Below, piece after piece: positions 2,198-33,385 of a stretch of DNA of 64,000 nucleotides. The stretch's first letter is position 1. Each line of letters opens with the position of its first letter. The DNA is taken from IMG/VR virus record IMGVR_UViG_3300021963_000033; one strand, given 5' to 3'. The stretch comes from a virus (Duplodnaviria > Heunggongvirae > Uroviricota > Caudoviricetes). The notes below the pieces were generated by a model. It had not been told where the DNA came from, did no database searches, and was given only the letters and a program-made list of their open reading frames with translations. Position numbers and translations under genes: made by a program.

Positions 2198-3520
2198 TTA
2201 TCCGAACATTACATGCACACCAACATTTAGCGTGTTCGGTATAATCTGTTGTTCCTGTTTGGTGTAGAGAAAGTCCAGACGCCCATCATTGTTAACATCC
2301 CACATCTCAACACCAGTCCACGCAGAATCCCATGGTGCTCGAAAAGTCTCATCAAACTTAAAGGTCTTACCATCATTGATCAGAATCTTAGTATCAGGCA
2401 TGTATCCAGTTGATACAATATCCAGCAATCCATCACGATTCACATCGGTGACATGGAGTTTGCTGTTCCATCGCTGCTCGCTGATGACAAACTTCTCAAC
2501 TCCAGTCTGCCCAAAAATATAAATCGTAGTTCCACGGTAGAAAGGTTGCTCGGCAGTCGTAGACATCACAATCTCTTTCTTACCATCACCAGTCAGGTCG
2601 GCAATCGAGATATCCGTAACAATCCTCCCAGGAATACTCAGAGTTTGCGTAGCACTATACTGCCCACCGCTATACCGAAGGACAATGCTGTCGACCTTAT
2701 CACCGCCGAGAACTAATTCGGATACTCCGTCAGCGTCTAAGTCGGCGAACTCTGCGGCAGAATATACTGATGCATTCAACCCACTCGCGAAGAGGTCATC
2801 ACGCCTCGTGAAGTTACCACGACCATCGTTTACCAGAAAATACGGTTTCGTCATCGTAGGCGTCCATGCGAGGTTACCGACATAAATGTCAACATCACCA
2901 TCGTTGTCTATATCAGCAATCGCCGTAGAGTGGGTAAAGTCCTTCGTGGTTGGAATATTGGAACTCTTATCACTGAACCCACCGCCAGCGGTGCCAAACA
3001 ATAGTTTATTCTGCCCACCACCAAAGGTTCCTGCATCATATCCTGCATCGCCAATGAATACATCCTTATATCCATCACGATTAAAGTCTGCAATCTCAAT
3101 AGTATCTACTGGCATGGAAGTCGAAACTACGCTGCTCTTTTTAGTGGCAAATACTGTAGAACTGTTGTTCGTCAGACTGTATGCAAACTCTTCACCATAT
3201 ACATCAGGTGCTGTGACATTATTCGGAAAGAATGACTTCAATACTGACAGGTGATTACCAACTGCATAGAATGACTCTATGGTATATTCAAAGGTATACT
3301 TCCCATTGATATTGGTATATGGTATCGTTATCTGAATACCATCAATCTTCTGTGGGACTGAGAATAATGCTGGACCTGCTACCACTACGGGTGGTGTAGG
3401 TGTAGTAGGAGTAACTGGCGGTACAGGTTGCACTGTAATGATAGGAGTACTACCACTACCGCCACCACCACATGCAGTGAGTAGCAGCATTACCATTAAT
3501 GGTGTAAATCTTTTCATCAT
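2198..3520 (-). CDS. FG-GAP/VCBS-repeat beta-propeller lipoprotein
   Basis: Lipoprotein signal MMKRFTPLMVMLLLTAC followed by a G/S linker. At least six DxDxDG-type FG-GAP repeats (DIDNDGDVDIYVGN, DVNRDGLLDIV, DVNNDGRLDF...). GGAGGAAG SD. Confidence 0.6.
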   Translation of the reverse strand: MMKRFTPLMVMLLLTACGGGGSGSTPIITVQPVPPVTPTTPTPPVVVAGPALFSVPQKIDGIQITIPYTNINGKYTFEYTIESFYAVGNHLSVLKSFFPNNVTAPDVYGEEFAYSLTNNSSTVFATKKSSVVSTSMPVDTIEIADFNRDGYKDVFIGDAGYDAGTFGGGQNKLLFGTAGGGFSDKSSNIPTTKDFTHSTAIADIDNDGDVDIYVGNLAWTPTMTKPYFLVNDGRGNFTRRDDLFASGLNASVYSAAEFADLDADGVSELVLGGDKVDSIVLRYSGGQYSATQTLSIPGRIVTDISIADLTGDGKKEIVMSTTAEQPFYRGTTIYIFGQTGVEKFVISEQRWNSKLHVTDVNRDGLLDIVSTGYMPDTKILINDGKTFKFDETFRAPWDSAWTGVEMWDVNNDGRLDFLYTKQEQQIIPNTLNVGVHVMFG

Positions 3521-6922: not shown

Positions 6923-7092
6923 TCCAGTGGACCATATGTTTTAATGTTTTCAATTATGTCTTTTATCATGAGATTCTTACTCCAATATACCATAGATCTA
7001 TACGTGCAAACCACTTACTATTGTGCTTGCCGAATCCGATACGCAGCATGCGATTGTTCTTGTCAAGTGGAATTGTGGTGATATTTTTCATG

Positions 7093-7620
7093 TTATACCA
7101 CAAATGACCACAGTGATGTATCAGCATGGAGCGTAACAGGTTTACCCAGCATTTGCTCTAGTTGCTTTACATTCTCCACCACATCTGGCCAGTCAGGTGA
7201 GTAGTCATGTCCACACAGCAGACCACCACTTTTTAGATGCCTGAGACCATACAGAATGATGTGCCAGTCATTGGGATTGCTGTGTGCAGCATCAACAAAG
7301 AATATATCAGCAGGATCACCGATATACTTTGAGTATTTAAAGTATGGGCATACATGGACAACTGGATGGATATTTGATATATCCTTGGTATTCTCATGGA
7401 AGTCATCATAGAAGTCGATATCTTCCTTTGCATCATAGAATGTATCCACACAGTATACCTTCACAGATGGATCACAGGACTTTGCCCATGCGACTGCACT
7501 GCGACCGAATAGACTGCCGACCTCTACAATGACACCACCTTCTGGGACTGTACTCGCCCATCGCTCGATGACCTGCAGTTCAGTTTCATTCATGTGTCCA
7601 TTGATTGTCATGTCATACAT
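7093..7620 (-). CDS. class I SAM-dependent methyltransferase
   Basis: VIVEVGSLFGRSA is a G-x-G-type SAM-binding motif I. GGAG SD. Confidence 0.55.
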   Translation of the reverse strand: MYDMTINGHMNETELQVIERWASTVPEGGVIVEVGSLFGRSAVAWAKSCDPSVKVYCVDTFYDAKEDIDFYDDFHENTKDISNIHPVVHVCPYFKYSKYIGDPADIFFVDAAHSNPNDWHIILYGLRHLKSGGLLCGHDYSPDWPDVVENVKQLEQMLGKPVTLHADTSLWSFVV

Positions 7621-8118
7621 TTACATCTCCGCCAGTTCTGCGAATGAGTTCAGTTCGAAACCACATTCACCATTGTTATACTTGCTGTTGCCACCGACTG
7701 GGAATTCAATCCGACCATAGTCACGGACAGATTCATAGTCAAAGATGAAGTAGTAGCGGAAGTTATCAGCAGCAGGGTCATATGCCATTACTCGCAGTGC
7801 ACCGACCTTATTGCCAATGCCAGTGACCAGCACCTTGCCACCATTGCCATTCGACTCACGGTAGTTCACAGTGACAGACTTCGCATCGGAATCATCAGTG
7901 AAGTCGCGAGCATCCTCTGAACACATCGCATACTTGCCCTTTGAGTTCTCCGCAAGAGCGAACTCATAGAAACGGTCACGTTGCAGCAGTCCATGCTTGG
8001 CGAGATACTTGATGGTATCAACCTGCTTGGGATTTGAGATTAGATGGGATGGGAGGTGTTGGACCAGTTCATTAATGAACGCAATGTCAAAAATCACAGT
8101 CGCATCAGTCGTTGCCAT
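7621..8118 (-). CDS. hypothetical protein
   Basis: ORF with an AAAGGAAA SD, downstream of promoter 8148-8176. Confidence 0.5.
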   Translation of the reverse strand: MATTDATVIFDIAFINELVQHLPSHLISNPKQVDTIKYLAKHGLLQRDRFYEFALAENSKGKYAMCSEDARDFTDDSDAKSVTVNYRESNGNGGKVLVTGIGNKVGALRVMAYDPAADNFRYYFIFDYESVRDYGRIEFPVGGNSKYNNGECGFELNSFAELAEM

Positions 8119-10139: not shown

Positions 10140-10427
10140 TTATATACTTTGACTGTCGCGGTTTTCGTTCATGCGCTTGATGTCAGCAGCACGTTGCTTC
10201 TTGAGTTCTTCAGCAGTCGCAACAGCATTCTTCTGCGTGTCATACTCAACCAGTTCAGCACTGGTCATGTTGGACTGTAGATCTGCAATGATAGACTGGA
10301 ATCGCGGAATCTCATTGCTTAGAGGAAAATACCGAGTGGCAGATTCTAAGCGAGTCTCCGCGAGACGCAGTCTATCAAACTTGCTGAAGGTAGCAGCAGT
10401 CTTGGCATTCTTTAAAATATCAACCAT
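10140..10427 (-). CDS. hypothetical protein
   Basis: ATG 10427 with an AAAAGGAAC SD, downstream of promoter 10458-10486. The ORF-track start at 10475 lies inside the promoter. Confidence 0.5.
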   Translation of the reverse strand: MVDILKNAKTAATFSKFDRLRLAETRLESATRYFPLSNEIPRFQSIIADLQSNMTSAELVEYDTQKNAVATAEELKKQRAADIKRMNENRDSQSI

Positions 10428-10457
10428 ATTGTAGTTCCTTTTCAATCTTAGAATTAC

Positions 10458-10486
10458 ATTATACCTGATATTCAATCAAATGTCAA
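10458..10486 (-). promoter_or_regulatory. early promoter, family member
   Basis: GGCTTGACA-17-TATAAT, a perfect sigma70 consensus. Confidence 0.6.
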
Positions 10487-10590
10487 GCCTTATTTTATCC
10501 TACCAACACTTTACATGCGCTGTTCATCACAGCAGCAATACGACCAATATCTTTCAATTGGTCAAGAGTATAACCTGCCGTCTTTAGTGT

Positions 10591-11001
10591 CTAGAAGTGT
10601 GCCTTCACGCAGAAGTGACACTTACCGATGATGCTTGCTGCGAGACTGTATGCCTCAAAACGCTCTTGAGTAGTGCCACCATGTGATGCGATTGCATTCA
10701 TACGCAGACCTGCTGGCAGACCATCAAGTGCACCATCCACCATCTCATTGTATGGATACCACACATTGTTCTGTGCCATCAACGATGCTGCTGTCAACGC
10801 AGCATCTGACTCTGTCTTGTTTACCATGACAGATTGCAACCATGTCCACGTTTTGGTGTCACCAGTTGCGAAGGCAGCAGCGAGTGCGCAACCCTCTGCT
10901 ACTTCTGGATCAAGCGAGGTGCGCTTGATCAAATCCAGATTAAGACGAGTGTCCTTGGCATAATCTGGGATTGCATCCTTGAGATCATCAATCCAATACA
11001 T
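10591..11001 (-). CDS. carboxymuconolactone decarboxylase / AhpD-like family protein
   Basis: C-terminal CHFCVKAH cysteine/histidine motif and an all-helical composition typical of the CMD/AhpD family. AAAGGAG SD. Confidence 0.5.
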   Translation of the reverse strand: MYWIDDLKDAIPDYAKDTRLNLDLIKRTSLDPEVAEGCALAAAFATGDTKTWTWLQSVMVNKTESDAALTAASLMAQNNVWYPYNEMVDGALDGLPAGLRMNAIASHGGTTQERFEAYSLAASIIGKCHFCVKAHF

Positions 11002-11704
11002 TGTTCTCTCCTTTAAGTAAAATGATATTATATTCTGTTTTTAGAATGTCAAATGTTTCTTCCCAATTAGAAACTGTATGCAACTTATCTGCCTCTAATG
11101 AGATAGTATGATCATTGCCACCAAATTCAGTTTTGTCACCAAAGAACACGAACGGTTTTATGTCATTCGCGATCTGACTCTTATCTTTACCTTTGAGGTA
11201 AATATCAAGTCCAGTTTCTCCAGCAACCGTAGCTTCTAGTCTAGGAAACTGGTTAGTAATCAATTTTGCTAGATTGTGTCTCTCATTGATAGCATTATCA
11301 TATCTAATGTATGATTCTCGTTGCTCACGATTGGCACCGCGACCAACAATGCTAAAATTACAAAGTCCCAACCGCATTTCAATGTGTTGTCCTGTTCTCT
11401 CAGGATATGCACTCGATCGCAATAAGGTTTCTAGGAATTGATTTTCTTCTCCAGTCAACTCGAATGAATTGGCATATACCTGATTCCCTTTGACGTAGAG
11501 AGCATTGCCAGCACAACTATACACACCAGCAACGCTCTCACAAATCTCAGTACCAAGTTGTTCTAATGTTTTGGCGCAGTCACTACCAGAAACAAGATAA
11601 ACTTTATTCTGCTTAATGAATTCTAGGAACCAACTAGCAAATTCAGGATCAACTCGCTGTCTGCTAGGTGTTAATGTCCCATCTACGTCAAAGGCAAAAT
11701 TCAT
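10988..11704 (-). CDS. HAD-superfamily phosphomannomutase, eukaryotic PMM type
   Basis: FDVDGTLTPSRQ (DxDGT), LVSGSDCAKTLEQLG and FFGDKTEFGGNDHTI closely resemble eukaryotic PMM1/2 motifs. Length is 238 aa. Confidence 0.65.
   Translation of the reverse strand: MNFAFDVDGTLTPSRQRVDPEFASWFLEFIKQNKVYLVSGSDCAKTLEQLGTEICESVAGVYSCAGNALYVKGNQVYANSFELTGEENQFLETLLRSSAYPERTGQHIEMRLGLCNFSIVGRGANREQRESYIRYDNAINERHNLAKLITNQFPRLEATVAGETGLDIYLKGKDKSQIANDIKPFVFFGDKTEFGGNDHTISLEADKLHTVSNWEETFDILKTEYNIILLKGENNVLD
11025..11052 (-). promoter_or_regulatory. promoter-like (TTGACA-16-TAATAT), weaker family member
   Basis: Lies inside the 3' end of the PMM gene, upstream of the AhpD-like gene. Confidence 0.4.
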
Positions 11705-12267
11705 TATAACGTGTCGCCACCGACTGCACGGTTGCAGGCACAGAGTTCACCAGTCTGCAGTGCATCAAGAATGCGCAGAGTTTCTTCAGGGTTACGACCA
11801 ACATCAAGGTTGTTCACAGTGACATGCTGAATAACATTGTCAGGGTCGACGATGAATGTGGCACGCAACGCAGCACCTGCTTCGTAACTGAACACGCCGA
11901 GTTGTTCGCACAAACTCATGTCGCTCTCAGCATAAAAATCAGAACGTGCTGTATCAGCAAACATCCATGAGGTAGTCTTCTTGAGATCTTCATGGGCATT
12001 CTTCCATGCCAACTTACAGAACTCATTGTCAGTCGAACCAATCATCAACACCGCATCACGGTCATCGAAGTCACTGTTCAACTTGTCATATGCAACGATT
12101 TCAGTTGGACATACGAACGTGAAGTCCTTTGGATAGAATACAATTACCTTCCACTTACCAATGAAAGTAGTTTCATTGATTGTTTGGAATGCGTTGTCAG
12201 GTGTCAGTGCTCCTGGTTTCACACCAGTGACTGCAAATTTCTTTAGTTTATAACCGATAGTCTTCAT
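11704..12267 (-). CDS. 2-Cys peroxiredoxin (AhpC/TSA family)
   Basis: FTFVCPTEI peroxidatic Cys motif plus a C-terminal resolving Cys (GELCACN). Start reassigned to ATG 12267 with a GAGGAG SD. Confidence 0.7.
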   Translation of the reverse strand: MKTIGYKLKKFAVTGVKPGALTPDNAFQTINETTFIGKWKVIVFYPKDFTFVCPTEIVAYDKLNSDFDDRDAVLMIGSTDNEFCKLAWKNAHEDLKKTTSWMFADTARSDFYAESDMSLCEQLGVFSYEAGAALRATFIVDPDNVIQHVTVNNLDVGRNPEETLRILDALQTGELCACNRAVGGDTL

Positions 12268-12271
12268 TTTA

Positions 12272-12436
12272 TTACTCCTCAATTAGCGGGATTGTTGTTG
12301 CTTTAGTTTCCCAAATTTCTTTGCCATTTTTCATACCGATGAAAGACTTTTCTTCAATCTTCATGATAATACCACCATCTTGGCGATGATAGTAGCGTCG
12401 TTCTTCTATACGAATCAAATTCAATTTCTCAGACAT
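12272..12436 (-). CDS. hypothetical small protein
   Basis: ATG 12436 with an AAAGGAAC SD. Confidence 0.4.
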   Translation of the reverse strand: MSEKLNLIRIEERRYYHRQDGGIIMKIEEKSFIGMKNGKEIWETKATTIPLIEE

Positions 12437-12707
12437 TATATAGTTCCTTTGCTTTTTTCTCCACCCATTTATCGAATGGTAGATGCATGCCAGTCGAACC
12501 ATTCCAGTCAGCGAATGCCTCGTCATAGAATCCGAGTTTGCATGCGTCTGGATACTTGGTCTGTAGGTCTGTCAGTTCATCTGCCCACTGCTGCCACTTG
12601 TCGTCATTGATCACGGGAGAATCCTTGACGTAGTAGAGATATGAGTGGATAATCATCTGATGTCGACGTTGCCGAATAATCTCATGTGGTTCACGCAGGT
12701 CAAGCAT
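12429..12707 (-). CDS. hypothetical protein
   Basis: First ATG in the ORF; the start is uncertain. Confidence 0.35.
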   Translation of the reverse strand: MLDLREPHEIIRQRRHQMIIHSYLYYVKDSPVINDDKWQQWADELTDLQTKYPDACKLGFYDEAFADWNGSTGMHLPFDKWVEKKAKELYNV

Positions 12708-12915
12708 TATAAAATTCTGCCTCTTCAATTCGGAAATGTGGAATCCAGTCACCTGTACTACCACCTGCTTCGCGCATTGCATCGGCCCAGTCCTGCGCCT
12801 TCTCGGTTTCCCAATCTCCTACTGCCTGAGCAGCATCGTAGGTAGGATAAACACCGAACACATCGCGATCACCATTATAATCGGTTTCATCGCGAATAAG
12901 GACATAAACTTTCAT
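12700..12915 (-). CDS. hypothetical acidic protein
   Basis: ORF downstream of promoter 12943-12971. Confidence 0.5.
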   Translation of the reverse strand: MKVYVLIRDETDYNGDRDVFGVYPTYDAAQAVGDWETEKAQDWADAMREAGGSTGDWIPHFRIEEAEFYNA

Positions 12916-24285: not shown

Positions 24286-24954
24286 TTAATTAGTTCCTGG
24301 ATCTGTTTTGCCGAGTTGATCGAAAGCCCACTGTCTTTCCCTACAGTGATAGCACTTACTGCATCTACCATATTTTTGCTGCGTGCAAGTGTGCGATATC
24401 TCGAGCAATCTTTCTGTGCCATGCATAAAATGCAAATCAATCGTGTGCGATTTCATCAATTCATTGAACGGCATGCCCAAATATTCCGGAAAGGGATTTG
24501 TATCTACTCTATACGGTTTTTCGTTTGGAGAAAGTACCAACTCGGATGTTTCTCTATTGTCTGCCATGTAAACAAACAGTTTACCATCCGCTGCATAGTC
24601 TTTGAATACTGCACGAACGCTCTCTTGAATTTGCTGCGAGTGGTGAAGTTCTTGGACGTTCTCTGCACCAAAAATCGTAGGCGCGGGTAAGTTTATACTC
24701 AGCATCTCGTTTATGGCGGCGACTATACCAGGAGAGTGAACCTCTGCGCCATCTGTCTTGGGCACCGTAAAGATATACTTAATTTCATCGATACTGCGCC
24801 CCTTCTTAATCAATTCGGAACAAATCATATACAATAGAATAGAACTGTCTGCTCCACTACTCAACATAATAGCAAGATCACGGTTTTCCGGTAGAGGCAA
24901 AACAAATGAGCGTCTATCTTCTGGTGGTCCACAGGTAAATGAAGTACTTGTCAT
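24286..24954 (-). CDS. QueC-like PP-loop ATPase (7-cyano-7-deazaguanine synthase family)
   Basis: SGADS PP-loop after a beta-strand (LAIMLSSGADSS). C-terminal C-x7-C-x2-C-x2-C (CTQQKYGRCSKCYHC) matches the QueC zinc site. Length 222 aa; AGGAG SD. Confidence 0.6.
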   Translation of the reverse strand: MTSTSFTCGPPEDRRSFVLPLPENRDLAIMLSSGADSSILLYMICSELIKKGRSIDEIKYIFTVPKTDGAEVHSPGIVAAINEMLSINLPAPTIFGAENVQELHHSQQIQESVRAVFKDYAADGKLFVYMADNRETSELVLSPNEKPYRVDTNPFPEYLGMPFNELMKSHTIDLHFMHGTERLLEISHTCTQQKYGRCSKCYHCRERQWAFDQLGKTDPGTN

Positions 24955-25772
24955 CTGTTTGCTCCTAGTAATTGCGTCGAGAGATTTACCAAGTTCGGAT
25001 AGAAAGTTGTAAACACTTCTCTCACCTCGTCGGCGTTTACAATTTGGTCGTATGGGTCTAGAGGTAGTTGTTTTTCATTAAAGACTCCGTATGCGAGTTT
25101 TTTCTCAGACTCATCTAAGTGCGCTGCCATCGAAGTCAATTCATCATATTCGACGACAATGTGACTACCGACAATATTAGTCATGATTTTTTTGTTATGT
25201 TCTTCCAAAAGATAACGACCGATGATCATGGATTTTAGTTCTGGGATATCAACACTTAAAGAATTGGAGTTTTTTCCGCTTCTGAAAATCATTGTTTTCT
25301 TGGAAAAGTAAGTGCTGAGAATCTTGTGCTCGAAATTGCGATTGACATATACAAATTTAAAATCCAGTTTCTTCAGAAGTTCTAAACTAGCAGTAACTGA
25401 AAGAAAGGTAAGTCTGTCATCTAAGAATACGCGACATGTCATTGGTTGTGCTGGATCTGCTCGCTGTATCTTTTCTATCCAGTCTTGACCTATCGCGGGG
25501 AGCATTTCAACATTTCTACTACTCGACATTTTACCGTTGCTATCAGTCATCATCTCGAATGATAGTTTATTATTTTCGTCGATTTCGATATTGAAGAAGT
25601 ACGCAGAATTGAATGAGAAGAAATCCTCTAGCGGTACTCCGCCATCAAACTTTTTGCCGATCGAATAGTTAAGCAGGGATTCGGTGAGTTGTGTTCCAGA
25701 TCTCGGAACACCCAGAACACAGTATCTATGATGCGATAGATTCCATGGGAGCGGATCGGACAACTTTATCAT
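24951..25772 (-). CDS. sulfotransferase family protein
   Basis: VLGVPRSGTQL matches the 5'-PSB-like P-loop, with a downstream RN..E motif. AAGGAAAA SD. Confidence 0.5.
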   Translation of the reverse strand: MIKLSDPLPWNLSHHRYCVLGVPRSGTQLTESLLNYSIGKKFDGGVPLEDFFSFNSAYFFNIEIDENNKLSFEMMTDSNGKMSSSRNVEMLPAIGQDWIEKIQRADPAQPMTCRVFLDDRLTFLSVTASLELLKKLDFKFVYVNRNFEHKILSTYFSKKTMIFRSGKNSNSLSVDIPELKSMIIGRYLLEEHNKKIMTNIVGSHIVVEYDELTSMAAHLDESEKKLAYGVFNEKQLPLDPYDQIVNADEVREVFTTFYPNLVNLSTQLLGANR

Positions 25773-25784
25773 TATGTTTTTTCC

Positions 25785-27401
25785 TTATGGTGCAACATAG
25801 TCTAACTTTTTCTTTTTGTAATTTTCGATAAAGTCAACTTTTTTATGCATCGGGGCGCGAACGCCTCCCAGTTGTCTAAATGACTTCATCATATCTTCGT
25901 CAGTATATCCACATACATACCAATCATCCATTCTCCAATGATCCACCCCAAAATCTAGATAAGAATCTTGCGCCCAGAAATTTTTGATGACCCATAGTAC
26001 AGCATCTTTTTCCGACATGCCCATGTTGTTGCGCCATCTAGTAAACAAAACTGATGGTGTCAGGTGCCGCATATACAATCGTATCTGATTTTTCAACTCA
26101 GGTTCAATTTGATTACTCTGGAATATGGGTACTAGATCTGGATGATCATCTGTCAATTGCTCTCCCTCGACCAAAGTAAATCCTTGTTTTTCATATTGAC
26201 TAGACAATTTACTTTGTGGATTATTTGCCAGCGTCTCGCTAGGAATAACCAAGGGATGTATCATTACATTATTGGTTTTCCAATGTTCCTTGCACCAGTT
26301 TAGAGTTTCGCTCAATGTTTCTTCTGTCTCATGCTGCAACCCTGCGATAAGACTTATTGTGCCTCTGTAATACCCATTATGCTCTAGACAGTATGCCTTA
26401 GAATCTAGAATTGCCTGTTGAATTTTGGCAGGTTCCATCCCTTTACCAATGGACTTGGCGCTAGGGCGATGAAATGATTCTATACCATAAAACTGCGAAG
26501 AAAAATTCATTCTTGATAAATGTTCAATATCTTCTGGGCGAGTATGTAACAGGTCGGCGCGAATATAACCTCCAAATAGAGGTTTAAAAGAAAACTTTTC
26601 AACCTCGTCTGCGTACTTGATTATCTTGTCAGTATAATCGTTGAAGGTTTCGTCGGCGATAGAATATCTGTATAGACCCCAATTGTCATAGTTTCTCACA
26701 AGATTGTCGTGAAAATCTTGTGCGTCGCGAGTATGGTCTTTTTTTACTCCAAGCACAGGGTACGTGCAAAATCCACATTTAAATCGGCAACCCCTGGAGG
26801 TTTCTATAGTTGTGTGTTCAAATGGTTGCATGAAATCTCGCTTTTCATAATCAACCGACAAATTGAGCATAGGAAAGGCGGGATAGTGTTTAACAGCGTC
26901 GACAGTTCTTCTGGTGTCACCTTCTTTGTTAATGACCTCCTCTGTCCACTTAGCAGTACCCTTTAAAATCTCAAGCATGGCATGTTCACCATATCCCGTG
27001 ACCATGTAATCAGCAGGTATTAAATGTATATTGTGGAATTGGGTGGACCCAGTAATGATAGTAACATCTGGATAAGTTTGTTTCAACCAAGAAAAGCAGA
27101 GATACAATATCTCTGTGTTCATTCTAAACAACGCACCCAATCCGACAAACTTGAACGTGGGTGTCATTCTTGAGCGAATTAACTCTTGAAATTCGCGCAC
27201 TGTCCAAGAAGGCGCGAAGTCAACAACCTCGACGTCTAGACCGTTTTGACGCAAGAATGATGCAATTCTATGTGCACCGCCATTCCGACGAACAGAACTA
27301 TAACTAATCGACGAGTCCTGCCTTCTCACTCCACTTTTATCAGTAGAAGGCGCTTCATCTAGATTAATCATACCACCAAAGATAATACCATCTAATGCCA
27401 T
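25785..27401 (-). CDS. B12-binding radical SAM protein (class B radical SAM)
   Basis: N-terminal cobalamin-binding-like domain. CRFKCGFC is a CxxxCxxC radical SAM motif. Length 538 aa. Confidence 0.65.
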   Translation of the reverse strand: MALDGIIFGGMINLDEAPSTDKSGVRRQDSSISYSSVRRNGGAHRIASFLRQNGLDVEVVDFAPSWTVREFQELIRSRMTPTFKFVGLGALFRMNTEILYLCFSWLKQTYPDVTIITGSTQFHNIHLIPADYMVTGYGEHAMLEILKGTAKWTEEVINKEGDTRRTVDAVKHYPAFPMLNLSVDYEKRDFMQPFEHTTIETSRGCRFKCGFCTYPVLGVKKDHTRDAQDFHDNLVRNYDNWGLYRYSIADETFNDYTDKIIKYADEVEKFSFKPLFGGYIRADLLHTRPEDIEHLSRMNFSSQFYGIESFHRPSAKSIGKGMEPAKIQQAILDSKAYCLEHNGYYRGTISLIAGLQHETEETLSETLNWCKEHWKTNNVMIHPLVIPSETLANNPQSKLSSQYEKQGFTLVEGEQLTDDHPDLVPIFQSNQIEPELKNQIRLYMRHLTPSVLFTRWRNNMGMSEKDAVLWVIKNFWAQDSYLDFGVDHWRMDDWYVCGYTDEDMMKSFRQLGGVRAPMHKKVDFIENYKKKKLDYVAP

Positions 27402-28267
27402 TAATCAATTACCTTTTTTGCATTTATTTCTGCCATTGATAATTGTCTATGTGGTTCATTGGTTATCTCCAATGCATCACCATATCCTTTACAGAATCTA
27501 CATGCATTTATGTTTATTTTTTCGCTGCTAATTGCCTCATGATAGTTTTCGTTAAACTGATCATTAATCGGTATACCATCCAGTTCCTTTAAGTCATATG
27601 GTAAAGGAACACCGATTGCTTTGTAGTATCCAGGACGATGCATACTTACAGCACACCGATAGTATTTTCCATCCATGAACGTGCCGCAATAGGTTTTCCC
27701 AGAACAAGAGGTATATACTGCTTGTGCGGTTTCTTCATCCAGTTCTTCAAATTGATCCAGCACACGAAACTCCTCTCCCCATGCCAATACTGAATGTGCT
27801 TCCTTGGACATTTCCTCTTGTTTCCAAACTCCAATACTTTTTGGATGGGACGGAACATTTTGTAAGTTCCAACGTTGTCCTCTTCTATCTAGATAGTCAA
27901 AAATCTTGTCGTAGTTTATTCCTGCATTTTCATACTTACTGAAAGTAACGATGTCACAATTGTCATAAAACTCATCTGGCATTGTCATTAGTTTCAATCC
28001 ATTCGTAAGAACGGCAGTAACATCACATAATTTGCTCTGCTTTGCGTATTTTAGATATTCTGTAATCTCTGGATTGAGCGTCGGTTCACCCCCAAGTAAA
28101 CGCAGGACACCAACATGCATGTATTGCGAGAGATTGTCTACATCTCGCTTGAAACTTTCTAAGTCTGAAAATTCTTCATCACGGTATGGAGATCCAGTGA
28201 TGCAGTTTGCGCATTTTAAATTGCAATGCCAACTTATGTAGTAATCAGTAGATCCGAGATTAATCAT
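27401..28267 (-). CDS. radical SAM protein with C-terminal Cys cluster (SPASM/twitch-like)
   Basis: CNLKCANC is a CxxxCxxC motif near the N-terminus. Extra C-terminal cysteines (CAVSM...CRFCKGYG). Confidence 0.6.
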   Translation of the reverse strand: MINLGSTDYYISWHCNLKCANCITGSPYRDEEFSDLESFKRDVDNLSQYMHVGVLRLLGGEPTLNPEITEYLKYAKQSKLCDVTAVLTNGLKLMTMPDEFYDNCDIVTFSKYENAGINYDKIFDYLDRRGQRWNLQNVPSHPKSIGVWKQEEMSKEAHSVLAWGEEFRVLDQFEELDEETAQAVYTSCSGKTYCGTFMDGKYYRCAVSMHRPGYYKAIGVPLPYDLKELDGIPINDQFNENYHEAISSEKININACRFCKGYGDALEITNEPHRQLSMAEINAKKVID

Positions 28268-28902
28268 TATTTTTCATTCCATTTAATTGATTCCAGAGTC
28301 TGCAAAAATGACTCTCGATGTGCCTCATTCCAAATAAGATAACCAATCCACTGTTTTACGCCGCGAATCTTAATTGGACCCGCAGATTTCATTGTCGGAT
28401 GAATTCTTACTCCAGGTTTGGCATAATGTTTACCGTTTTCCATAAAATATCCAGGATGTTTTTTTGGATCATTTATTTCAATGTATCTAGGATATAATCT
28501 AGAATTGTATTCATTTACTGAAGAGAATGCGCCAAACCGTCCAGTTTCCATACTTATATCTATGGCCAAATCATGAATAGCACCCTGCACTCGAGGCAGG
28601 GTGACTCCAGGGACTGTATAACTGCGAGAACTTAAATGTGTCATTTTTTCATCTATATCAGAAACTGAGAAACCACTGCCACATAAAATTCTATCATCTT
28701 TCTTATGTATTATATATCCATTACCACTACCATTATACCGTTTTTCTACATAAAGTAAATATAAAAACGAGGATTTATTTTCTTCCCATCCAACAGGACT
28801 CATGTTTTCTGCTCCTGGACGCGGATCTCCCAGAGATGCTTCACAAAATGGAAGAATCTTTTCTATGGGATAACTACTATCAATTTTCTCTAAATCAATC
28901 AT
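28267..28902 (-). CDS. hypothetical protein (possible acyltransferase-like)
   Basis: ORF translationally coupled into the operon; no firm motif. Confidence 0.45.
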   Translation of the reverse strand: MIDLEKIDSSYPIEKILPFCEASLGDPRPGAENMSPVGWEENKSSFLYLLYVEKRYNGSGNGYIIHKKDDRILCGSGFSVSDIDEKMTHLSSRSYTVPGVTLPRVQGAIHDLAIDISMETGRFGAFSSVNEYNSRLYPRYIEINDPKKHPGYFMENGKHYAKPGVRIHPTMKSAGPIKIRGVKQWIGYLIWNEAHRESFLQTLESIKWNEK

Positions 28903-29540
28903 AATATATTAAGACGAATTCGTGCTTCTTCTAGATCTTCATTAAACAAATCATCATAATTTTCTGCGAGTAAGAACTTAGCATTTGTCCCTCGCAGATA
29001 TGCATGTTTGACCATGGATAGATTTTTGTAAGAAAGACCATATTTTAATGAACCAAGCAAACATATCGCAAACCAACCAAGCGATTTTGTCTGTGCAAAT
29101 GAAAATGCTGCGAGACAAATTTCACCTGTATCATTTGCAGGATATCCTGTCAACGTGTGCCAAGTGTCATGTGTGTCGCGATACCTACGTGCCATCCAAT
29201 TATATGGATGTTTTGCTTCGATCCATTTGCTGTTGTTTGATTTTCTTCTGCTGAGTTTCAGTAAGATTTCTTGGTTCGGAAATAGTTTGTGACATTCTCT
29301 ACCAACAGACCCTTCTGGTCTCTCAGAAAGTGTCGGGAAATACTGCGAAATTTCCTCGGAGTTATACACAACCTCGCCGCCTGTTTTAGTCTTCATTAAC
29401 TGATCAAGACTCCAGCGCAATGATGGCGGATTTAATGCATGAAGGATCTCGAAAATGAAAATTGTGTTTGCAGGATTTTTGCGCAGTTTCTTAAATGCTT
29501 TGTATGCACGAAGATAGTCAATTTTGTATTCTAGTCTCAT
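28899..29540 (-). CDS. Coq4-like (HDxxH-x10-GE) family protein
   Basis: HDTWHTLTGYPANDTGE matches the Coq4 metal-binding signature. Confidence 0.35.
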   Translation of the reverse strand: MRLEYKIDYLRAYKAFKKLRKNPANTIFIFEILHALNPPSLRWSLDQLMKTKTGGEVVYNSEEISQYFPTLSERPEGSVGRECHKLFPNQEILLKLSRRKSNNSKWIEAKHPYNWMARRYRDTHDTWHTLTGYPANDTGEICLAAFSFAQTKSLGWFAICLLGSLKYGLSYKNLSMVKHAYLRGTNAKFLLAENYDDLFNEDLEEARIRLNIL

Positions 29541-30276
29541 CTACAATAACCTTCAATTCGCGAAGCACTTTTTTAATTTCAATCGGATTACTCAGGAAGG
29601 CATAGAAGTTTCCACTATCTTCCAAGTCGTAGACATATAGATGCTCATTAGTAAGAACATAGTTTATATCTGGATTATAGTATAATTTATATGATGCTAC
29701 GACATCCTCTGAACCGAGAAATGTCTCGTCGAAATCGAAGGAATTAATAACTTTCTTGGAATACAGTAACATTCTATTTTGCAGAAGATTTGCCGCCAAA
29801 AATTTACCGAGTTCGATTAGACGCAATCCATGCGAACCTTTTACGTTAGCGAACTTGTAGATATCTGCGCTGTTGAAGAACGCATTACCTGTGGTATTAG
29901 TTCCATTATAAGTCATCGCTCCATCGATCAAACCAATAACATCAACATCTGGATTTTCGTTCACAATTTTATCAAGTTTGATCAGTGAATCGGGAGCAAG
30001 ATAGTCATCTGCATCAACTTGCATGTAATAGTCATGCGAACGAGTTCGAAAAATCTCTAGAACAGAATTCTTCCCCTTCGCAGGTGTCCCGTTAGATTCA
30101 GTTACCAGAAACTCTAAATTGTATTCCTCGGCAACAGATCTCGCTTGCTCTACAAATGAAAAATCGAGAGTGTTGCATACCACAACCACATCACTGGTTT
30201 GAGGCAGAACACTCTCGATACAACGTTTTAATTTTTCAACATTCCTTGAAGTAAGGACTGCGACCAACAGATTCAT
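29518..30276 (-). CDS. family 2 glycosyltransferase (GT-A fold)
   Basis: N-terminal nucleotide-sugar binding (VVVVCNTLD) and a QVDADDY DxD motif. Confidence 0.6.
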   Translation of the reverse strand: MNLLVAVLTSRNVEKLKRCIESVLPQTSDVVVVCNTLDFSFVEQARSVAEEYNLEFLVTESNGTPAKGKNSVLEIFRTRSHDYYMQVDADDYLAPDSLIKLDKIVNENPDVDVIGLIDGAMTYNGTNTTGNAFFNSADIYKFANVKGSHGLRLIELGKFLAANLLQNRMLLYSKKVINSFDFDETFLGSEDVVASYKLYYNPDINYVLTNEHLYVYDLEDSGNFYAFLSNPIEIKKVLRELKVIVDETRIQN

Positions 30277-30628: not shown

Positions 30629-30703
30629 TGGTAGCCCCGAGCGGTTTCGATCCGCCTTCTCGTCAGTGAAAGTGACGTGTCCTAGCCAGTAGACGACGGG
30701 GCC
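30629..30703 (-). tRNA. tRNA-Glu(TTC)
   Basis: Cloverleaf with anticodon loop CTTTCAC, a GGTTCGAAACC-type T-arm and an encoded CCA. Confidence 0.75.
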
Positions 30704-30708
30704 ATAAA

Positions 30709-30945
30709 TTATAGACCAATAGCAGTGCGATAAGTCTCAAGAATCATATCTTCTTCTTGACGAACATGCGCTTCCTTCTTGCGGAGACGAATAATCTGGC
30801 GAGTTGCCTTAACATCGTAACCTTCGCTCTTTACATCAGCATACGCTTGTTTGCGATCTAACTTCTTATCGTCGATTTCTTTCTCGATATTTTCGATACG
30901 CTCAACCAACAAACGATACTTATCAATTGCAATAACATCAGTCAT
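30709..30945 (-). CDS. hypothetical coiled-coil protein
   Basis: ORF with an AAAGGAAG SD, directly downstream of tRNA-Cys. Confidence 0.5.
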   Translation of the reverse strand: MTDVIAIDKYRLLVERIENIEKEIDDKKLDRKQAYADVKSEGYDVKATRQIIRLRKKEAHVRQEEDMILETYRTAIGL

Positions 30946-30963
30946 AATATACTTCCTTTAGAA

Positions 30964-31041
30964 TGGAGGCACGAGTGGGATTCGAACCCACGGTTTTCAG
31001 GTTTTGCAGACCTGTGCGATGGACCACTCCGCCATCGTGCC
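30964..31041 (-). tRNA. tRNA-Cys(GCA)
   Basis: Anticodon loop CTGCAAA, T-arm GGTTCGAATCC, CCA encoded. Confidence 0.75.
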
Positions 31042-31046
31042 AAAAT

Positions 31047-31117
31047 TGGTACCAGCAGTAGGTAACGCTCCTACCAAACCAACCTTATGAGAGTCGGTCG
31101 GACACTTATCCTGCTGG
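31047..31117 (-). tRNA. atypical tRNA-like element (CAT anticodon loop)
   Basis: 7-9 bp acceptor helix plus encoded CCA, packed between two tRNAs. Loop CTCATAA on a 5-bp stem. D-region reduced and T-loop AGCGTTA non-canonical. Confidence 0.35.
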
Positions 31118-31119
31118 TA

Positions 31120-31195
31120 TGGTGCGAGTGACAGGGTTCGAACCTGTGACCTAACGATTATCGGTCGTTTGCTCTACCAACTGAGCTACACTCGC
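31120..31195 (-). tRNA. tRNA-Ile(GAT)
   Basis: Anticodon loop CCGATAA; canonical D- and T-arms. Confidence 0.75.
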
Positions 31196-31200
31196 AAATA

Positions 31201-31282
31201 TGGTGGGCACGGTGGGACTCGAACCCACAAAGTTTCCTAACGAATTTTAAGTCCGTCGCGTTTACCATTTCGCCACGTGCCC
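31201..31282 (-). tRNA. tRNA-Leu(TAA)
   Basis: Class II tRNA with a long variable arm; loop CTTAAAA. Confidence 0.7.
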
Positions 31283-31283
31283 A

Positions 31284-31359
31284 TGGGGTGATCGACGGGT
31301 ATCGAGCCCGCAACTCCGGATTCACAATCCAGCATGTATCCATTAACACCTCAACCACC
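31284..31359 (-). tRNA. tRNA-His(GTG)
   Basis: Loop TTGTGAA, an extra 5' G(-1) opposite C73, and a 3' end CACCCCA as in bacterial tRNA-His. Confidence 0.65.
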
Positions 31360-31375
31360 ATAAACTAATGCAGTG

Positions 31376-31420
31376 CCCATTACTGACGCATTACGCACCC
31401 TCGTCATGGGTTTTTGTTTT
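31376..31420 (+). terminator. plus-strand intrinsic-terminator-like hairpin
   Basis: CCCAT(TAC)TGACG...CGTCATGGG followed by TTTTTGTTTT on the plus strand. Confidence 0.35.
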
Positions 31421-31471
31421 GCTACGCTGGAAGATACCCTATCTCCCTTGGGCCACTTGACACTGCAACTT

Positions 31472-31558
31472 TGGCGGAAGGTGTGGGAGTCGAACCCACT
31501 CAACCATTTCTGGTTGACGCATTAGCAGTGCGTTGCATTACCGTCCTGCCCACCTTCC
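31472..31558 (-). tRNA. tRNA-Ser(GCT)
   Basis: Class II; loop CTGCTAA. Confidence 0.7.
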
Positions 31559-31564
31559 GTTATA

Positions 31565-32362: not shown

Positions 32363-32376
32363 AATAACTTTATTCC

Positions 32377-32553
32377 TTAGAAAATCAAAACGATTCCAGT
32401 AATAACGACCATCGTTAATACAGTACACACTATACTATAAGCAAGCAATTTAGTCAAGCTTATTTTTTCAGACTTATTCATTTTTCTGAAAGTATCAATG
32501 CCAACGATGAATCCAAACAGGATGACCATGAAGGCAACAATCATTTTACTCAT
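32377..32553 (-). CDS. small membrane protein (58 aa)
   Basis: AAGGAA SD; its stop overlaps the downstream RBS. Absent from the ORF track. Confidence 0.4.
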   Translation of the reverse strand: MSKMIVAFMVILFGFIVGIDTFRKMNKSEKISLTKLLAYSIVCTVLTMVVITGIVLIF

Positions 32554-32582
32554 AACAAATTCCTTAAAAATTGGTTAAAAAT

Positions 32583-32657
32583 TGGTGGATCCACTGGGAC
32601 TTGAACCCAGAATATGCGATTAAAAGTCGCGTGTGATACCTATTTCACCATGGATCC
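32583..32657 (-). tRNA. tRNA-Lys(TTT)
   Basis: Loop CTTTTAA; perfect acceptor GGATCCA/TGGATCC. Its 5' 18 nt are shared with the HEG stop region. Confidence 0.7.
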
Positions 32658-33218: not shown

Positions 33219-33260
33219 ACTAGTCTCCTTATACTAGTATTTATATTTTTAGAGCATTTA

Positions 33261-33298
33261 ACTTAACCTTGTTGCTCTACCTACTGAGCTAATCGTCC
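33261..33298 (-). pseudogene. tRNA 5'-half fragment (acceptor plus D-arm plus partial anticodon arm)
   Basis: GGACGATTAGCTCAGTAGGTAGAGCAACAAGG has a canonical D-arm but no 3' half. It abuts the HEG leader. Confidence 0.5.
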
Positions 33299-33303
33299 GA
33301 AAC

Positions 33304-33379
33304 TGGTAGACCCTGTTGGATTCGAACCAACGACCTGCGGATTAAGAGTCCGATGCTCTACCGACTGAGCTAAGGGTCC
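33304..33379 (-). tRNA. tRNA-Lys(CTT)
   Basis: Loop CTCTTAA; canonical arms. Confidence 0.7.
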
Positions 33380-33385
33380 ATAAAA

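What the first reader, a model, noticed from the sequence alone, without database searches (positions are those of the whole stretch)
10591..12267. Adjacent AhpD-like protein, eukaryotic-type phosphomannomutase and 2-Cys peroxiredoxin
The three genes are consecutive. The CMD/AhpD-family protein sits next to an AhpC/TSA peroxiredoxin, mirroring the mycobacterial AhpC-AhpD peroxide-detoxification couple. A HAD enzyme lies between them. Its DVDGTLT, GSD and FFGDKTxxGGNDH motifs match eukaryotic PMM1/2 rather than the bacterial alpha-D-phosphohexomutase ManB family. Redox defence together with mannose-1-phosphate supply is an unusual auxiliary set for a phage. The PMM may feed the glycosyltransferase operon 12 kb downstream.
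Basis: partly seen in the sequence, partly recalled or inferred. Interest (0 to 1): 0.55.

Follow-up and report, generated by a model that had tools for sequence, protein, structure and literature searches.

The report
Phage AhpC–phosphomannomutase–AhpD cassette, amber-broken ahpD
A large aquatic T4-like phage carries three co-oriented host-derived genes: a mycobacterial-type peroxide-detoxifying pair (AhpC and AhpD) with a eukaryotic-type phosphomannomutase between them. Such genes are common in environmental phages, and the one oddity here is a premature amber stop in ahpD.

Summary
The three genes are real, adjacent and on the minus strand, in the order ahpC (11704-12267), PMM (10988-11704), ahpD (from 11001). 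Family assignments hold:
- The best solved-structure matches are M. tuberculosis AhpC (9e-40) and AhpD (9e-24).
- The HAD protein is Pfam PMM (86 bits) and not Cof-type.
- All catalytic residues are present in all three.

Another 31 conserved codons run on to the true stop at 10495. A relative that is 96% identical in DNA has GAG at that position. All 80 viral homologues examined have D, E or N there. No suppressor tRNA was found, and TAG is otherwise an ordinary stop in this window. The amber is therefore a recent nonsense allele, and an independent assembly reproduces it.

The set is not unusual. More than 584 IMG/VR stretches encode this AhpD, usually with ahpC upstream, and 380 encode this PMM. 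The gap between ahpC and ahpD is a variable slot that holds many unrelated genes, and PMM fills it only in one sublineage. Elsewhere PMM lies in glycan clusters. The "glycosyltransferase operon" is mostly radical-SAM genes with a single GT2. Overall these are ordinary auxiliary genes with an annotation caveat.

The parts
11704..12267 (-). ahpC-like typical 2-Cys peroxiredoxin (187 aa). Peroxidatic Cys53 sits in PKDFTFVCPTE. C-terminal Cys176 and Cys178 sit in ELCACN.
   Evidence: Pfam AhpC-TSA 1.6e-21. Best PDB match is M. tuberculosis AhpC 2BMX at 9.1e-40, against 2.7e-29 for the next family. It is 78-81% identical to ahpC genes lying upstream of ahpD in viral contigs.
10988..11704 (-). HAD-IIB, eukaryotic-type phosphomannomutase-like enzyme (238 aa). 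Key residues are D6/D8 (nucleophile and acid-base), R15, S41, R111, N116, R122, R129, K175, D190 and N197/D198.
   Evidence: Pfam PMM PF03332 at 86.1 bits against a cutoff of 22.4; Cof-type models fall below their cutoffs. PDB PMMs match at 8.7e-26 to 2e-19 over the full length. The listed residues are invariant in a 32-sequence phage alignment and in about 266 relatives.
10591..11001 (-). ahpD codons 1-136 plus the premature TAG. This part contains E116, C128-H-F-C131 and H135, the E(x)11CxxCxxxH active-site motif.
   Evidence: TIGR00777 1.7e-26, aligned to model positions 2-137 of 177.
10591..10593 (-). In-frame amber codon (TAG) at ahpD codon 137. Relatives have GAG, GAA, GAT or GAC here.
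   Evidence: Sequence. L083, 96.1% identical in DNA, has GAG. 80 of 80 viral homologues have D, E or N. An independent Logan assembly, L257, is 100% identical and includes the TAG.
10495..10590 (-). ahpD codons 138-168 plus the true TAA stop. This is the stranded 3' remainder, which encodes the last turns of the active-site helix and the whole C-terminal helix.
   Evidence: It aligns to Mtb AhpD residues about 140-168. Against L083 it shows 8 synonymous and 1 non-synonymous difference. In the AF2 model of a 98% identical full-length homologue, helices span 129-141 and 146-167.
10458..10486 (-). Perfect sigma-70-type promoter (TTGACA-17-TATAAT) directly after the true ahpD stop. It marks the start of the next transcription unit.
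   Evidence: 12 of 12 consensus match. The TTGACAT sequence is conserved in L083 and L085.

Best explanation
The locus is a block of three translationally coupled auxiliary genes in a variable region of a roughly 168-kb aquatic T4-like myovirus.

(1) ahpC encodes an AhpD-dependent 2-Cys peroxiredoxin. By homology it reduces H2O2 and organic hydroperoxides at Cys53, and it is recycled through Cys176/Cys178.

(2) ahpD encodes the CxxC adaptor that re-reduces AhpC. In M. tuberculosis, AhpD draws electrons from lipoamide on the host E2/Lpd system with NADH (established knowledge). In this genome a single G-to-T change (GAG to TAG) at codon 137 truncates AhpD. The truncation clips the active-site helix and removes the C-terminal helix. 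The phage copy is therefore probably inactive or only weakly expressed by read-through. The phage AhpC would then depend on host reductants.

(3) The middle gene is a HAD-type phosphomannomutase that would interconvert hexose-6-P and hexose-1-P (mannose and/or glucose) for sugar-nucleotide supply.

PMM is an independent passenger. ahpC-ahpD is a widespread viral gene pair whose intergenic gap is a variable insertion slot, and PMM fills that slot only in one sublineage.

Shown here: gene structure, family assignments, conserved residues, the nonsense allele and the comparative contexts. Inferred: the enzymatic activities, the loss of AhpD function and the lack of functional coupling.
For: Family and residues.

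Amber codon:
- Searches show the in-frame TAG and its continuation.
- One search shows GAG in L083.
- One search shows D/E/N in 80 of 80 homologues.
- Searches show that the 120 best homologues are 167-197 aa, and that the other complete members of the 90% cluster are 168 aa.
- Searches show the TAG reproduced in an independent assembly.
- One search shows which helices are lost.

No recoding: 7 of 88 minus-strand ORFs end in TAG, and none of the 22 tRNAs has a CUA anticodon.

Purifying selection: against L083, pN/pS is about 0.05-0.12 for all three genes. For the post-TAG segment the values are pN 0.014 and pS 0.358.

Phage identity: primase, RNR, endolysin and T4 RNase H are present.

Cassette recurrence:
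- L083 and L085 carry ahpC-PMM-ahpD.
- L088-90 and L178-180 carry ahpC-PMM-SGNH-ahpD.

Variable slot: 71 IMG/VR loci have ahpC upstream of ahpD. Among the loci where the whole ahpC is present, about 31 have the genes directly adjacent and 37 have 0.1-2 kb of SGNH-like, class II aldolase, TerC, NUMOD3 endonuclease, epimerase, rubredoxin and other genes between them.

PMM as a sugar enzyme: PMM homologues at 58-83% identity lie in clusters with GT1, GDP-mannose-dehydratase-like, fucosyltransferase, GLF and mannose-6-P-isomerase genes.
Against: - No activity was measured for any of the three proteins.
- AhpD falls below the NCBIfam TIGR00777 cutoff even when read through (111.5 against 191.95 bits).
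- The strong excess of synonymous changes downstream of the TAG would also fit a codon that is still translated.
- Only 64 kb of the roughly 168-kb genome was searched for a suppressor tRNA.
- PMM keeps the same position, translationally coupled, in cassettes whose AhpD is only 49% identical. A glutaredoxin-PMM fusion also exists. A functional tie between PMM and thiol-redox proteins is therefore not excluded.
- The window lacks any GDP-mannose pyrophosphorylase or dehydratase, so the downstream use of the PMM product is unknown.
Confidence: 0.7

Rival explanations
1. The amber codon is decoded, either by a suppressor tRNA from the host or from the unseen part of the phage genome, or by programmed or leaky read-through. 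Full-length functional AhpD would then be made and the AhpC/AhpD couple would be intact.
For: The 31 codons after the TAG show 8 synonymous and 1 non-synonymous difference against L083. They are in frame, with no start codon of their own. The allele is reproducible in an independent assembly. The gene end and the next promoter sit after the TAA at 10495, not after the TAG.
Against: None of the 22 window tRNAs has a CUA anticodon. TAG ends 7 of 88 minus-strand ORFs of at least 80 aa, with no sign of conserved extensions. The nearest relative has GAG, and 80 of 80 homologues have a sense codon. The selection signal is equally expected if the nonsense mutation is very recent.
Confidence: 0.15
2. 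The PMM-like enzyme is functionally part of the redox module, for example as a thiol- or peroxide-regulated sugar-phosphate mutase, or as the maker of a metabolite needed by the AhpC/AhpD system. On this reading it is not an unrelated passenger.
For: The ahpC-PMM-(SGNH)-ahpD order with start/stop overlaps is kept across lineages in which PMM is 72-97% and AhpD only about 50% identical. An N-terminal glutaredoxin-PMM fusion has 16 members in T4-like contigs. Cys64 is specific to this clade and nearly invariant, where eukaryotic PMMs have Glu. In S-SSM6a a peroxiredoxin lies 2.3 kb from the PMM homologue.
Against: Only 4 of 80 IMG/VR PMM loci have ahpC or ahpD within 5 kb, and 0 of 80 ahpD loci have PMM. 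The same slot holds many unrelated genes. An 83% identical PMM lies in a glycan cluster with no redox genes. Redox genes are common in these phages, so chance adjacency is likely.
Confidence: 0.08
3. The HAD protein is not a mannose-specific mutase. It could be an alpha-phosphoglucomutase supplying Glc-1-P and UDP-glucose, for example for DNA or glycan glucosylation, or simply a sugar-phosphate phosphatase.
For: The HAD-type alpha-PGM of Lactococcus (4BND) is also a homologue, at 9.4e-11. One homologue lies near a Tet-associated glycosyltransferase-type gene and a helicase. Others lie inside the T4 replication module. Eukaryotic PMMs are known to act on both glucose and mannose phosphates (established knowledge).
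Against: Scores against PMMs are about 15 orders of magnitude better than against alpha-PGM. All phosphate-binding Arg/Asn residues of the PMM cap are invariant. The recurring neighbours are GDP-mannose-dehydratase-like, fucosyltransferase and mannose-6-P isomerase genes.
Confidence: 0.2
4. The TAG is a sequencing or consensus error and the real phage has GAG.
For: It is a single-base difference from the closest relative. All three sources may derive from the same reads.
Against: A Logan assembly of run SRR7130817, made with different software, is 100% identical over 2220 bp and includes the TAG. Substitution errors rarely survive in a metagenome consensus.
Confidence: 0.05

Closest known systems
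Mycobacterium tuberculosis AhpC/AhpD alkylhydroperoxidase system (PDB 2BMX; 1KNC/1GU9)
   Same: These are the best solved-structure matches for both proteins. The peroxidatic motif FTFVCPTE and the C-terminal double-Cys LCACN are shared. AhpD has the same E(x)11CxxCxxxH motif and the same length class (168 against 177 aa). The gene order, ahpC upstream of ahpD, is the same.
   Different: The genes are carried by a lytic-type T4-like phage. An unrelated PMM gene separates them. ahpD is truncated by an amber codon at position 137. AhpD scores below the TIGR00777 cutoff. The nearest cellular AhpDs are from Burkholderiales at 50-57% identity, not from actinobacteria.
Eukaryotic-type phosphomannomutase, Pfam PF03332 (human PMM1/PMM2, yeast Sec53, Leishmania PMM 2I54)
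   Same: It is a full-length HAD-IIB core plus cap. The DxDxT, S/T, K and GDxxxxGGND motifs and the cap Arg/Asn phosphate-binding residues are all conserved.
   Different: Identity to eukaryotic PMMs is low (about 77-94 bits). It belongs to a large environmental, mostly viral clade in which about 200 50%-identity clusters score at or below 1e-30. The clade has SCAGN with a conserved Cys where eukaryotes have S/P-ENG. Some members are fused to glutaredoxin or to radical-SAM domains.
PMM-like genes of cyanomyoviruses S-SSM7/S-SSM6a and P-TIM68 (phrog_29277, annotated as hypothetical)
   Same: They are the closest homologues in cultured phages, at 41-45% identity over 92% of the length.
   Different: In those phages the gene is not flanked by ahpC and ahpD. 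In S-SSM6a it is followed by an unclassified 'redox protein', and in P-TIM68 it lies near CobS and gp45.
Phage-encoded peroxiredoxin, thioredoxin and glutaredoxin auxiliary genes of cyanomyoviruses (e.g. S-SCSM2R, PMC12801897)
   Same: The concept is the same: phage-carried antioxidant genes presumed to protect the infected cell.
   Different: Those are single Prx genes of other subfamilies, with thioredoxin or glutaredoxin as reductant. Here the Prx is the AhpD-dependent subtype and comes with its own dedicated reductase gene.

Membership tests
AhpC-type typical 2-Cys peroxiredoxin (AhpD-coupled, mycobacterial type) | Thioredoxin-fold AhpC/TSA domain scoring above the Pfam gathering score | tested here: met
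   PF00578 scores 76.9 bits against a cutoff of 26.
AhpC-type typical 2-Cys peroxiredoxin (AhpD-coupled, mycobacterial type) | Peroxidatic Cys in a PxxxTxxC motif, plus the conserved Arg | tested here: met
   PKDFTFVC53PTE and R in RATFIVD are aligned to Mtb AhpC.
AhpC-type typical 2-Cys peroxiredoxin (AhpD-coupled, mycobacterial type) | C-terminal resolving cysteines (Mtb C174/C176, LCACN) | tested here: met
   ELC176AC178N is aligned to the Mtb ELCA(C/S)N motif.
AhpC-type typical 2-Cys peroxiredoxin (AhpD-coupled, mycobacterial type) | Not the AhpF-coupled AhpC equivalog | tested here: met
   TIGR03137 scores 108 bits against a cutoff of 272. Mtb AhpC is the best PDB hit by 10 orders of magnitude.
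AhpC-type typical 2-Cys peroxiredoxin (AhpD-coupled, mycobacterial type) | Peroxidase activity recycled by AhpD | not testable with these tools
   Needs an enzyme assay.
AhpD alkylhydroperoxidase (CMD superfamily, TIGR00777) | Active-site motif E(x)11-C-x-x-C-x-x-x-H | tested here: met
   E116, C128, C131 and H135 align to Mtb E118, C130, C133 and H137. C128, C131 and H135 are invariant in 24 homologues.
AhpD alkylhydroperoxidase (CMD superfamily, TIGR00777) | Complete all-helical subunit of about 170-177 aa | tested here: not met
   The ORF stops at codon 137 (TAG). Homologues are 167-173 aa. The truncation removes helix 146-167 and the end of helix 129-141.
AhpD alkylhydroperoxidase (CMD superfamily, TIGR00777) | Score above the curated family cutoff | tested here: not met
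   TIGR00777 scores 93.1 bits truncated and 111.5 bits read through, against a cutoff of 191.95. Pfam CMD scores 21.6 against 23 for the truncated ORF. The alignment is nevertheless full-length, and Mtb AhpD is the only strong PDB hit.
AhpD alkylhydroperoxidase (CMD superfamily, TIGR00777) | Genomic pairing with ahpC | tested here: met
   ahpC lies 717 bp upstream in the window. ahpC lies upstream of ahpD in 71 of 80 viral loci.
Eukaryotic-type phosphomannomutase (PF03332, HAD-IIB) | Pfam PMM above the gathering score over the full domain | tested here: met
   86.1 bits against 22.4, covering profile positions 9-217 of 221.
Eukaryotic-type phosphomannomutase (PF03332, HAD-IIB) | HAD motifs I-IV (DxDxT, S/T, K, GDxxxxGGND) | tested here: met
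   D6, D8, T10, S41, K175, D190, N197 and D198 are invariant or nearly so in about 266 relatives.
Eukaryotic-type phosphomannomutase (PF03332, HAD-IIB) | Cap-domain Arg/Asn residues that bind the sugar phosphate | tested here: met
   R15, R111, N116, R122 and R129 align to the conserved R/N residues of Leishmania and Candida PMM. They are conserved in at least 95% of relatives, except R15, which is 100% conserved in close relatives and 80% in distant representatives.
Eukaryotic-type phosphomannomutase (PF03332, HAD-IIB) | Man-6-P to Man-1-P mutase activity | not testable with these tools
   Only context supports it: neighbours in relatives are GDP-mannose dehydratase-like, fucosyltransferase and Man-6-P isomerase genes.
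Cof-type HAD phosphatases (TIGR00099 / PF08282) | Score above the family cutoffs | tested here: not met
   TIGR00099 scores 29.6 against 137, and PF08282 scores 19.1 against 20.9, with only the N-terminal 80 residues aligned.
Bacterial alpha-D-phosphohexomutase (ManB/AlgC/PGM) family | Four-domain PGM_PMM architecture | tested here: not met
   No PGM_PMM domain hit in Pfam or NCBIfam, and at 238 aa the protein is too short.
Stop-codon-recoded phage (TAG read as sense genome-wide) | TAG avoided as a terminator, in-frame TAGs in many genes, and a suppressor tRNA | tested here: not met
   TAG ends 7 of 88 ORFs. I saw no other homology-supported in-frame TAG. None of the 22 tRNAs has a CUA anticodon. 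Only 64 kb of about 168 kb was examined.

The most novel reading that the evidence does not exclude
The phage-clade PMM may be functionally wired to thiol-redox proteins. It could be a redox-gated sugar-phosphate mutase, or part of a peroxide-responsive module. The hints are:
- its conserved, translationally coupled position between ahpC and ahpD in several lineages;
- a recurrent glutaredoxin-PMM fusion;
- a clade-specific, nearly invariant Cys64 at a position where eukaryotic PMMs have Glu.

A related structural reading is that the ahpC-ahpD gap serves as a homing-endonuclease landing pad that collects cargo genes.
Probability: 0.1. Interest if true: 0.6.

Novelty: new member of a known kind. 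Interest (0 to 1): 0.33.

Why it matters
The locus shows that environmental T4-like phages commonly carry the complete lipoamide-dependent AhpC/AhpD peroxide defence pair. This goes beyond the lone peroxiredoxins already known from cyanophages. It adds a concrete auxiliary-gene class for studies of oxidative stress during infection.

The practical lesson concerns annotation. The ahpD in this genome is split by an amber codon and should be called a pseudogene or a read-through candidate, not a 136-aa 'CMD protein'.

The PMM belongs to a large viral clade of a family named 'eukaryotic', so it should not be read as evidence of eukaryote-to-phage transfer.

None of this changes how the enzyme families are understood.

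Tried and rejected
- Megablast of the locus against 50,697 phage records found no match. The phage has no close cultured relative.
- A single-protein scan of IMG/VR for PMM found nothing. An alignment-based scan was needed.
- A search for other TAG-bearing copies by exact DNA pattern found none in IMG/VR. The two metagenome hits were unrelated chance matches carrying GAG.
- Genome-wide TAG recoding was rejected. Other long in-frame 'extensions' are simply adjacent genes that happen to share a frame, for example the RNR gene at 47919-49718 after 49719-50339.
- The 'glycosyltransferase operon fed by PMM' idea was rejected for this window.
- A recent eukaryotic origin of PMM was rejected, but only on score distribution. 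No proper tree with eukaryotic and bacterial sequences was built.
- Literature searches for phage ahpC/ahpD or phage PMM auxiliary genes found nothing specific. Only generic phage peroxiredoxins turned up.
- The S-SSM6a 'redox protein' next to the PMM homologue was suspected to be a cupin or Man-6-P isomerase, but it has no Pfam hit.
- A conserved C55-C64 disulfide was considered.
Full report
**Observation**

Between 10495 and 12267 the minus strand carries three tightly packed genes.
- The first is a 187-aa peroxiredoxin (12267 down to 11704), preceded by a GAGGAG ribosome-binding site.
- The second is a 238-aa HAD protein (11704 down to 10988). Its ATG shares base 11704 with the peroxiredoxin stop codon.
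- The third is a CMD/AhpD-like gene starting at 11001, which overlaps the HAD gene by 14 nt.

The window as a whole is phage. All long ORFs are on one strand, and there are 22 tRNA genes. It also encodes ribonucleotide reductase, primase, endolysin and T4-type RNase H. The primase is most similar, at 37-40%, to those of Pelagibacter phage Mosig and T4-like cyanophages. No cultured phage is close at the DNA level.

**Family assignments**

The peroxiredoxin matches Pfam AhpC-TSA at 1.6e-21. Its best solved-structure match is M. tuberculosis AhpC (2BMX, 9.1e-40), ten orders of magnitude ahead of the next family. It has the peroxidatic FTFVC53PTE motif and the mycobacterial-type C-terminal ELC176AC178N motif.

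The CMD protein's only strong solved-structure match is M. tuberculosis AhpD (1GU9/1KNC, 8.9e-24), with E116, C128, C131 and H135 aligned to the catalytic E118, C130, C133 and H137.

The HAD protein scores 86 bits on Pfam PMM (cutoff 22.4). Cof-type models fall below their cutoffs. Solved eukaryotic PMMs match over the full length at 8.7e-26 to 2e-19, and the Lactococcus HAD-type alpha-PGM matches at 9e-11. The catalytic Asp pair, motifs II-IV and the phosphate-binding Arg/Asn residues of the cap are invariant in a 32-sequence alignment. They are at least 95% conserved in about 266 relatives, except R15, which falls to 80% in the distant representatives. The second refutation test, clustering with Cof phosphatases, is also not met.

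The 136-aa ORF ends at a TAG (10591-10593), two residues after the catalytic His. The same frame then runs for 31 more codons to a TAA at 10495-10497. That tail aligns with the C-terminus of Mtb AhpD.

Several comparisons show that the TAG is an exception.
- In 80 of 80 viral homologues the equivalent codon encodes D, E or N, as GAA, GAT, GAC, GAG or AAT.
- The 120 best database homologues are 167-197 aa long.
- A 3-kb metagenome contig (L083) is 96.1% identical in DNA over 2236 bp. It carries the same ahpC-PMM-ahpD cassette with an intact 168-aa ahpD, and it has GAG exactly where the window has TAG.

The window therefore carries a single G-to-T nonsense substitution. It is not an assembler artefact. 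An independent Logan assembly of run SRR7130817 is 100% identical to window 10230-12449, including the TAG. It may, however, derive from the same sample.

The window shows no sign of stop-codon recoding. TAG ends 7 of 88 ORFs, and none of the 22 tRNAs is a suppressor.

Between the window and L083 all three genes show strong purifying selection (pN/pS about 0.05-0.12). The segment after the TAG shows 8 synonymous and 1 non-synonymous difference. The nonsense mutation is therefore recent, or the codon is still read to some degree.

An AlphaFold model of a 98% identical full-length homologue (pLDDT 82.8, pTM 0.82) places the CxxC...H motif on helix 129-141, followed by a confident terminal helix at 146-167. 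The amber clips the first helix and deletes the second, so the 136-aa product is probably unstable or inactive. That last step is an inference.

A perfect TTGACA-17-TATAAT promoter lies directly after the TAA at 10495 and is conserved in relatives. This supports 10495 as the ancestral gene end.

**How common the genes are**

The genes are nearly absent from cultured phage records.
- An AhpD of this kind appears in one record, a Ralstonia 'phage' in which ahpC and ahpD are adjacent.
- PMM appears in cyanomyoviruses S-SSM7/S-SSM6a and P-TIM68 at 41-45% identity.

In IMG/VR, however, more than 584 stretches encode a close AhpD (60-74% identity). In 71 of the best 80 loci, ahpC (65-81% identical) lies upstream on the same strand. 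These loci are phage. They share scattered genes with the window, including endolysin, RNR, primase and Band-7, and some carry homing-endonuclease genes. Several come from contigs of 200-300 kb.

The nearest cellular AhpDs are from Burkholderiales at 50-57% identity. This hints at the source lineage and perhaps at the host.

Phage-encoded peroxiredoxins are already described as antioxidant auxiliary genes (PMC12801897). In six literature searches I found no paper describing a phage AhpC/AhpD pair.

**Why PMM sits between ahpC and ahpD**

In the IMG/VR loci where the whole ahpC is present, ahpC and ahpD are directly adjacent in about 31 loci. In 37 others they are separated by 0.1-2 kb of variable cargo:
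- a small SGNH/GDSL-like protein in 21 loci;
- class II aldolase in 10;
- TerC in 4;
- an EF-hand protein in 4;
- NUMOD3/GIY-YIG-type endonucleases in 3;
- an NAD-dependent epimerase, a rubredoxin and a 2OG oxygenase.

None of these 80 loci has PMM. Conversely, of 80 IMG/VR loci with the PMM (380 found in total), only 4 have ahpC or ahpD within 5 kb. Ten show an AAA-PMM-SGNH arrangement, and at least 11 have GDP-mannose-dehydratase or epimerase genes nearby.

Gene-context look-ups give the same picture.
- ahpC-PMM-ahpD occurs in L083 and L085.
- ahpC-PMM-SGNH-ahpD occurs in L088-90.
- An 83% identical PMM lies inside a cluster of GT1, DUF707, PMM, epimerase, methyltransferases and UDP-galactopyranose mutase.
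- A 58% identical PMM lies near fucosyltransferase, GDP-mannose dehydratase and mannose-6-P isomerase genes.

Within PMM-bearing cassettes, AhpC is 78% and PMM about 83-85% identical to the window's, but AhpD is only 49% identical. The cassette is therefore mosaic.

The simplest reading is that ahpC-ahpD is a conserved viral pair with a variable slot between the two genes. PMM is a mobile sugar-metabolism gene that fills that slot in one sublineage.

**The proposed link to a glycosyltransferase operon**

The genes at 23-30 kb lie upstream in the direction of transcription. They encode two radical-SAM enzymes (one with a B12-binding domain), a Coq4-like protein, a weak QueC-like match and a single GT2 at 29518-30276.

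No homologue of GDP-mannose pyrophosphorylase, GDP-mannose dehydratase, epimerase, GT1, GLF or PMI was found in the window. The general idea that PMM supplies activated sugars is supported by the contexts in related phages. The specific link inside this window is not supported.

**Origin of the PMM**

Against 1.84 billion cluster representatives, 1492 clusters match at E no greater than 1e-3 and 200 at no greater than 1e-30. The top 150 score 138-293 bits, whereas solved eukaryotic PMMs score 77-94 bits.

Ten sampled clusters are all environmental, with contigs of up to about 200 kb. The protein is 'eukaryotic-type' only in the sense of its Pfam family name. It belongs to a large, mainly viral environmental clade. 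No formal tree was built.

**Residual oddities that keep a more novel reading alive**

- Some members of the PMM clade are fused to an N-terminal glutaredoxin. This form is 347 aa, has 16 members, and lies between the clamp-loader genes gp44 and gp62 in a 185-kb T4-like contig. Another member is fused to a radical-SAM domain.
- Cys64 is conserved in 120 of 120 close relatives and 120 of 146 distant representatives, at a position where eukaryotic PMMs have Glu.

Together with the conserved position between ahpC and ahpD, these points allow a functional PMM-redox link but do not demonstrate one. I put that at about 10%.

**Verdict**

The set is an ordinary, if so far undescribed, combination of auxiliary genes in aquatic T4-like phages. 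The one new fact about this window is the recent amber mutation that splits ahpD.

Noticed in passing
IMG/VR loci L003-L082 (e.g. L003:1616-2914, L005:4517-4930, L020:4599-5004): The gap between ahpC and ahpD in viral contigs is a variable slot. It holds an SGNH-like 137-aa protein (21 loci), class II aldolase (10), TerC (4), an EF-hand protein (4), and also rubredoxin, epimerase and 2OG oxygenase genes.
   Followed up: partly
L012:2414-3775: A 51-aa fragment of the ahpD 5' end (2414-2569) lies just upstream of a NUMOD3 homing-endonuclease gene (2578-3270), which is followed by the full ahpD (from 3272). This looks like the footprint of an endonuclease-mediated insertion next to ahpD.
   Followed up: no
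P0177/P0282; L258:6001-7044: A glutaredoxin-PMM fusion protein (347 aa, 16 cluster members) lies between the clamp-loader genes gp44 and gp62 of a 185-kb T4-like contig. A separate PMM-radical SAM fusion also exists (P0186, 715 aa).
   Followed up: partly
window 24286-30276 (-): A run of genes encodes a B12-binding radical-SAM enzyme (25785-27401), a second radical-SAM/4Fe-4S protein (27401-28267), a Coq4-like protein (28899-29540), a GT2 (29518-30276) and a weak QueC-like match (24286-24954). It could be a modification pathway of unknown product.
   Followed up: no
window 12429-12782 (-): A stand-alone 117-aa ORF matches only the N-terminal Ia (NAD+-binding) domain of NAD-dependent DNA ligase (PF22745, 6.4e-31). 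It lies just upstream of the cassette.
   Followed up: no
window 30629-39318 (-): An array of 22 tRNA genes is interspersed with small ORFs, a DUF559/MTES_1575 endonuclease-like gene (32640-33218) and an N6/N4 DNA methylase (38039-38758). None of the tRNAs is a suppressor.
   Followed up: partly
window 10458-10486 (-): A perfect sigma-70 consensus promoter (TTGACA-17-TATAAT) lies directly after the true ahpD stop. It is conserved in L083 and L085, and promoter-like sites are enriched in the region (19 found against 7.6 expected).
   Followed up: partly
L095-L097, L099, L101 (genome contigs): Short contigs binned into MAGs labelled Hydrogenophaga, Haliscomenobacter, Fischerella, Acidimicrobiaceae and Beijerinckiaceae carry the phage-type AhpD at 58-68% identity, above any isolate genome (57% or less). 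They are probably phage contigs mis-binned into MAGs.
   Followed up: no
L001:4666-5154 and 7003-7641 (cyanophage S-SSM6a): The PMM homologue is followed by a 162-aa gene annotated 'redox protein' that has no Pfam hit. An 'antioxidant protein' 2.3 kb further on is a Redoxin/AhpC-TSA peroxiredoxin of a different subtype.
   Followed up: partly
window 10988-11704, residue Cys64: The phage/environmental PMM clade has a nearly invariant Cys in an SCAGN motif where eukaryotic PMMs have Glu (S/P-ENG). Its significance is unknown.
   Followed up: partly
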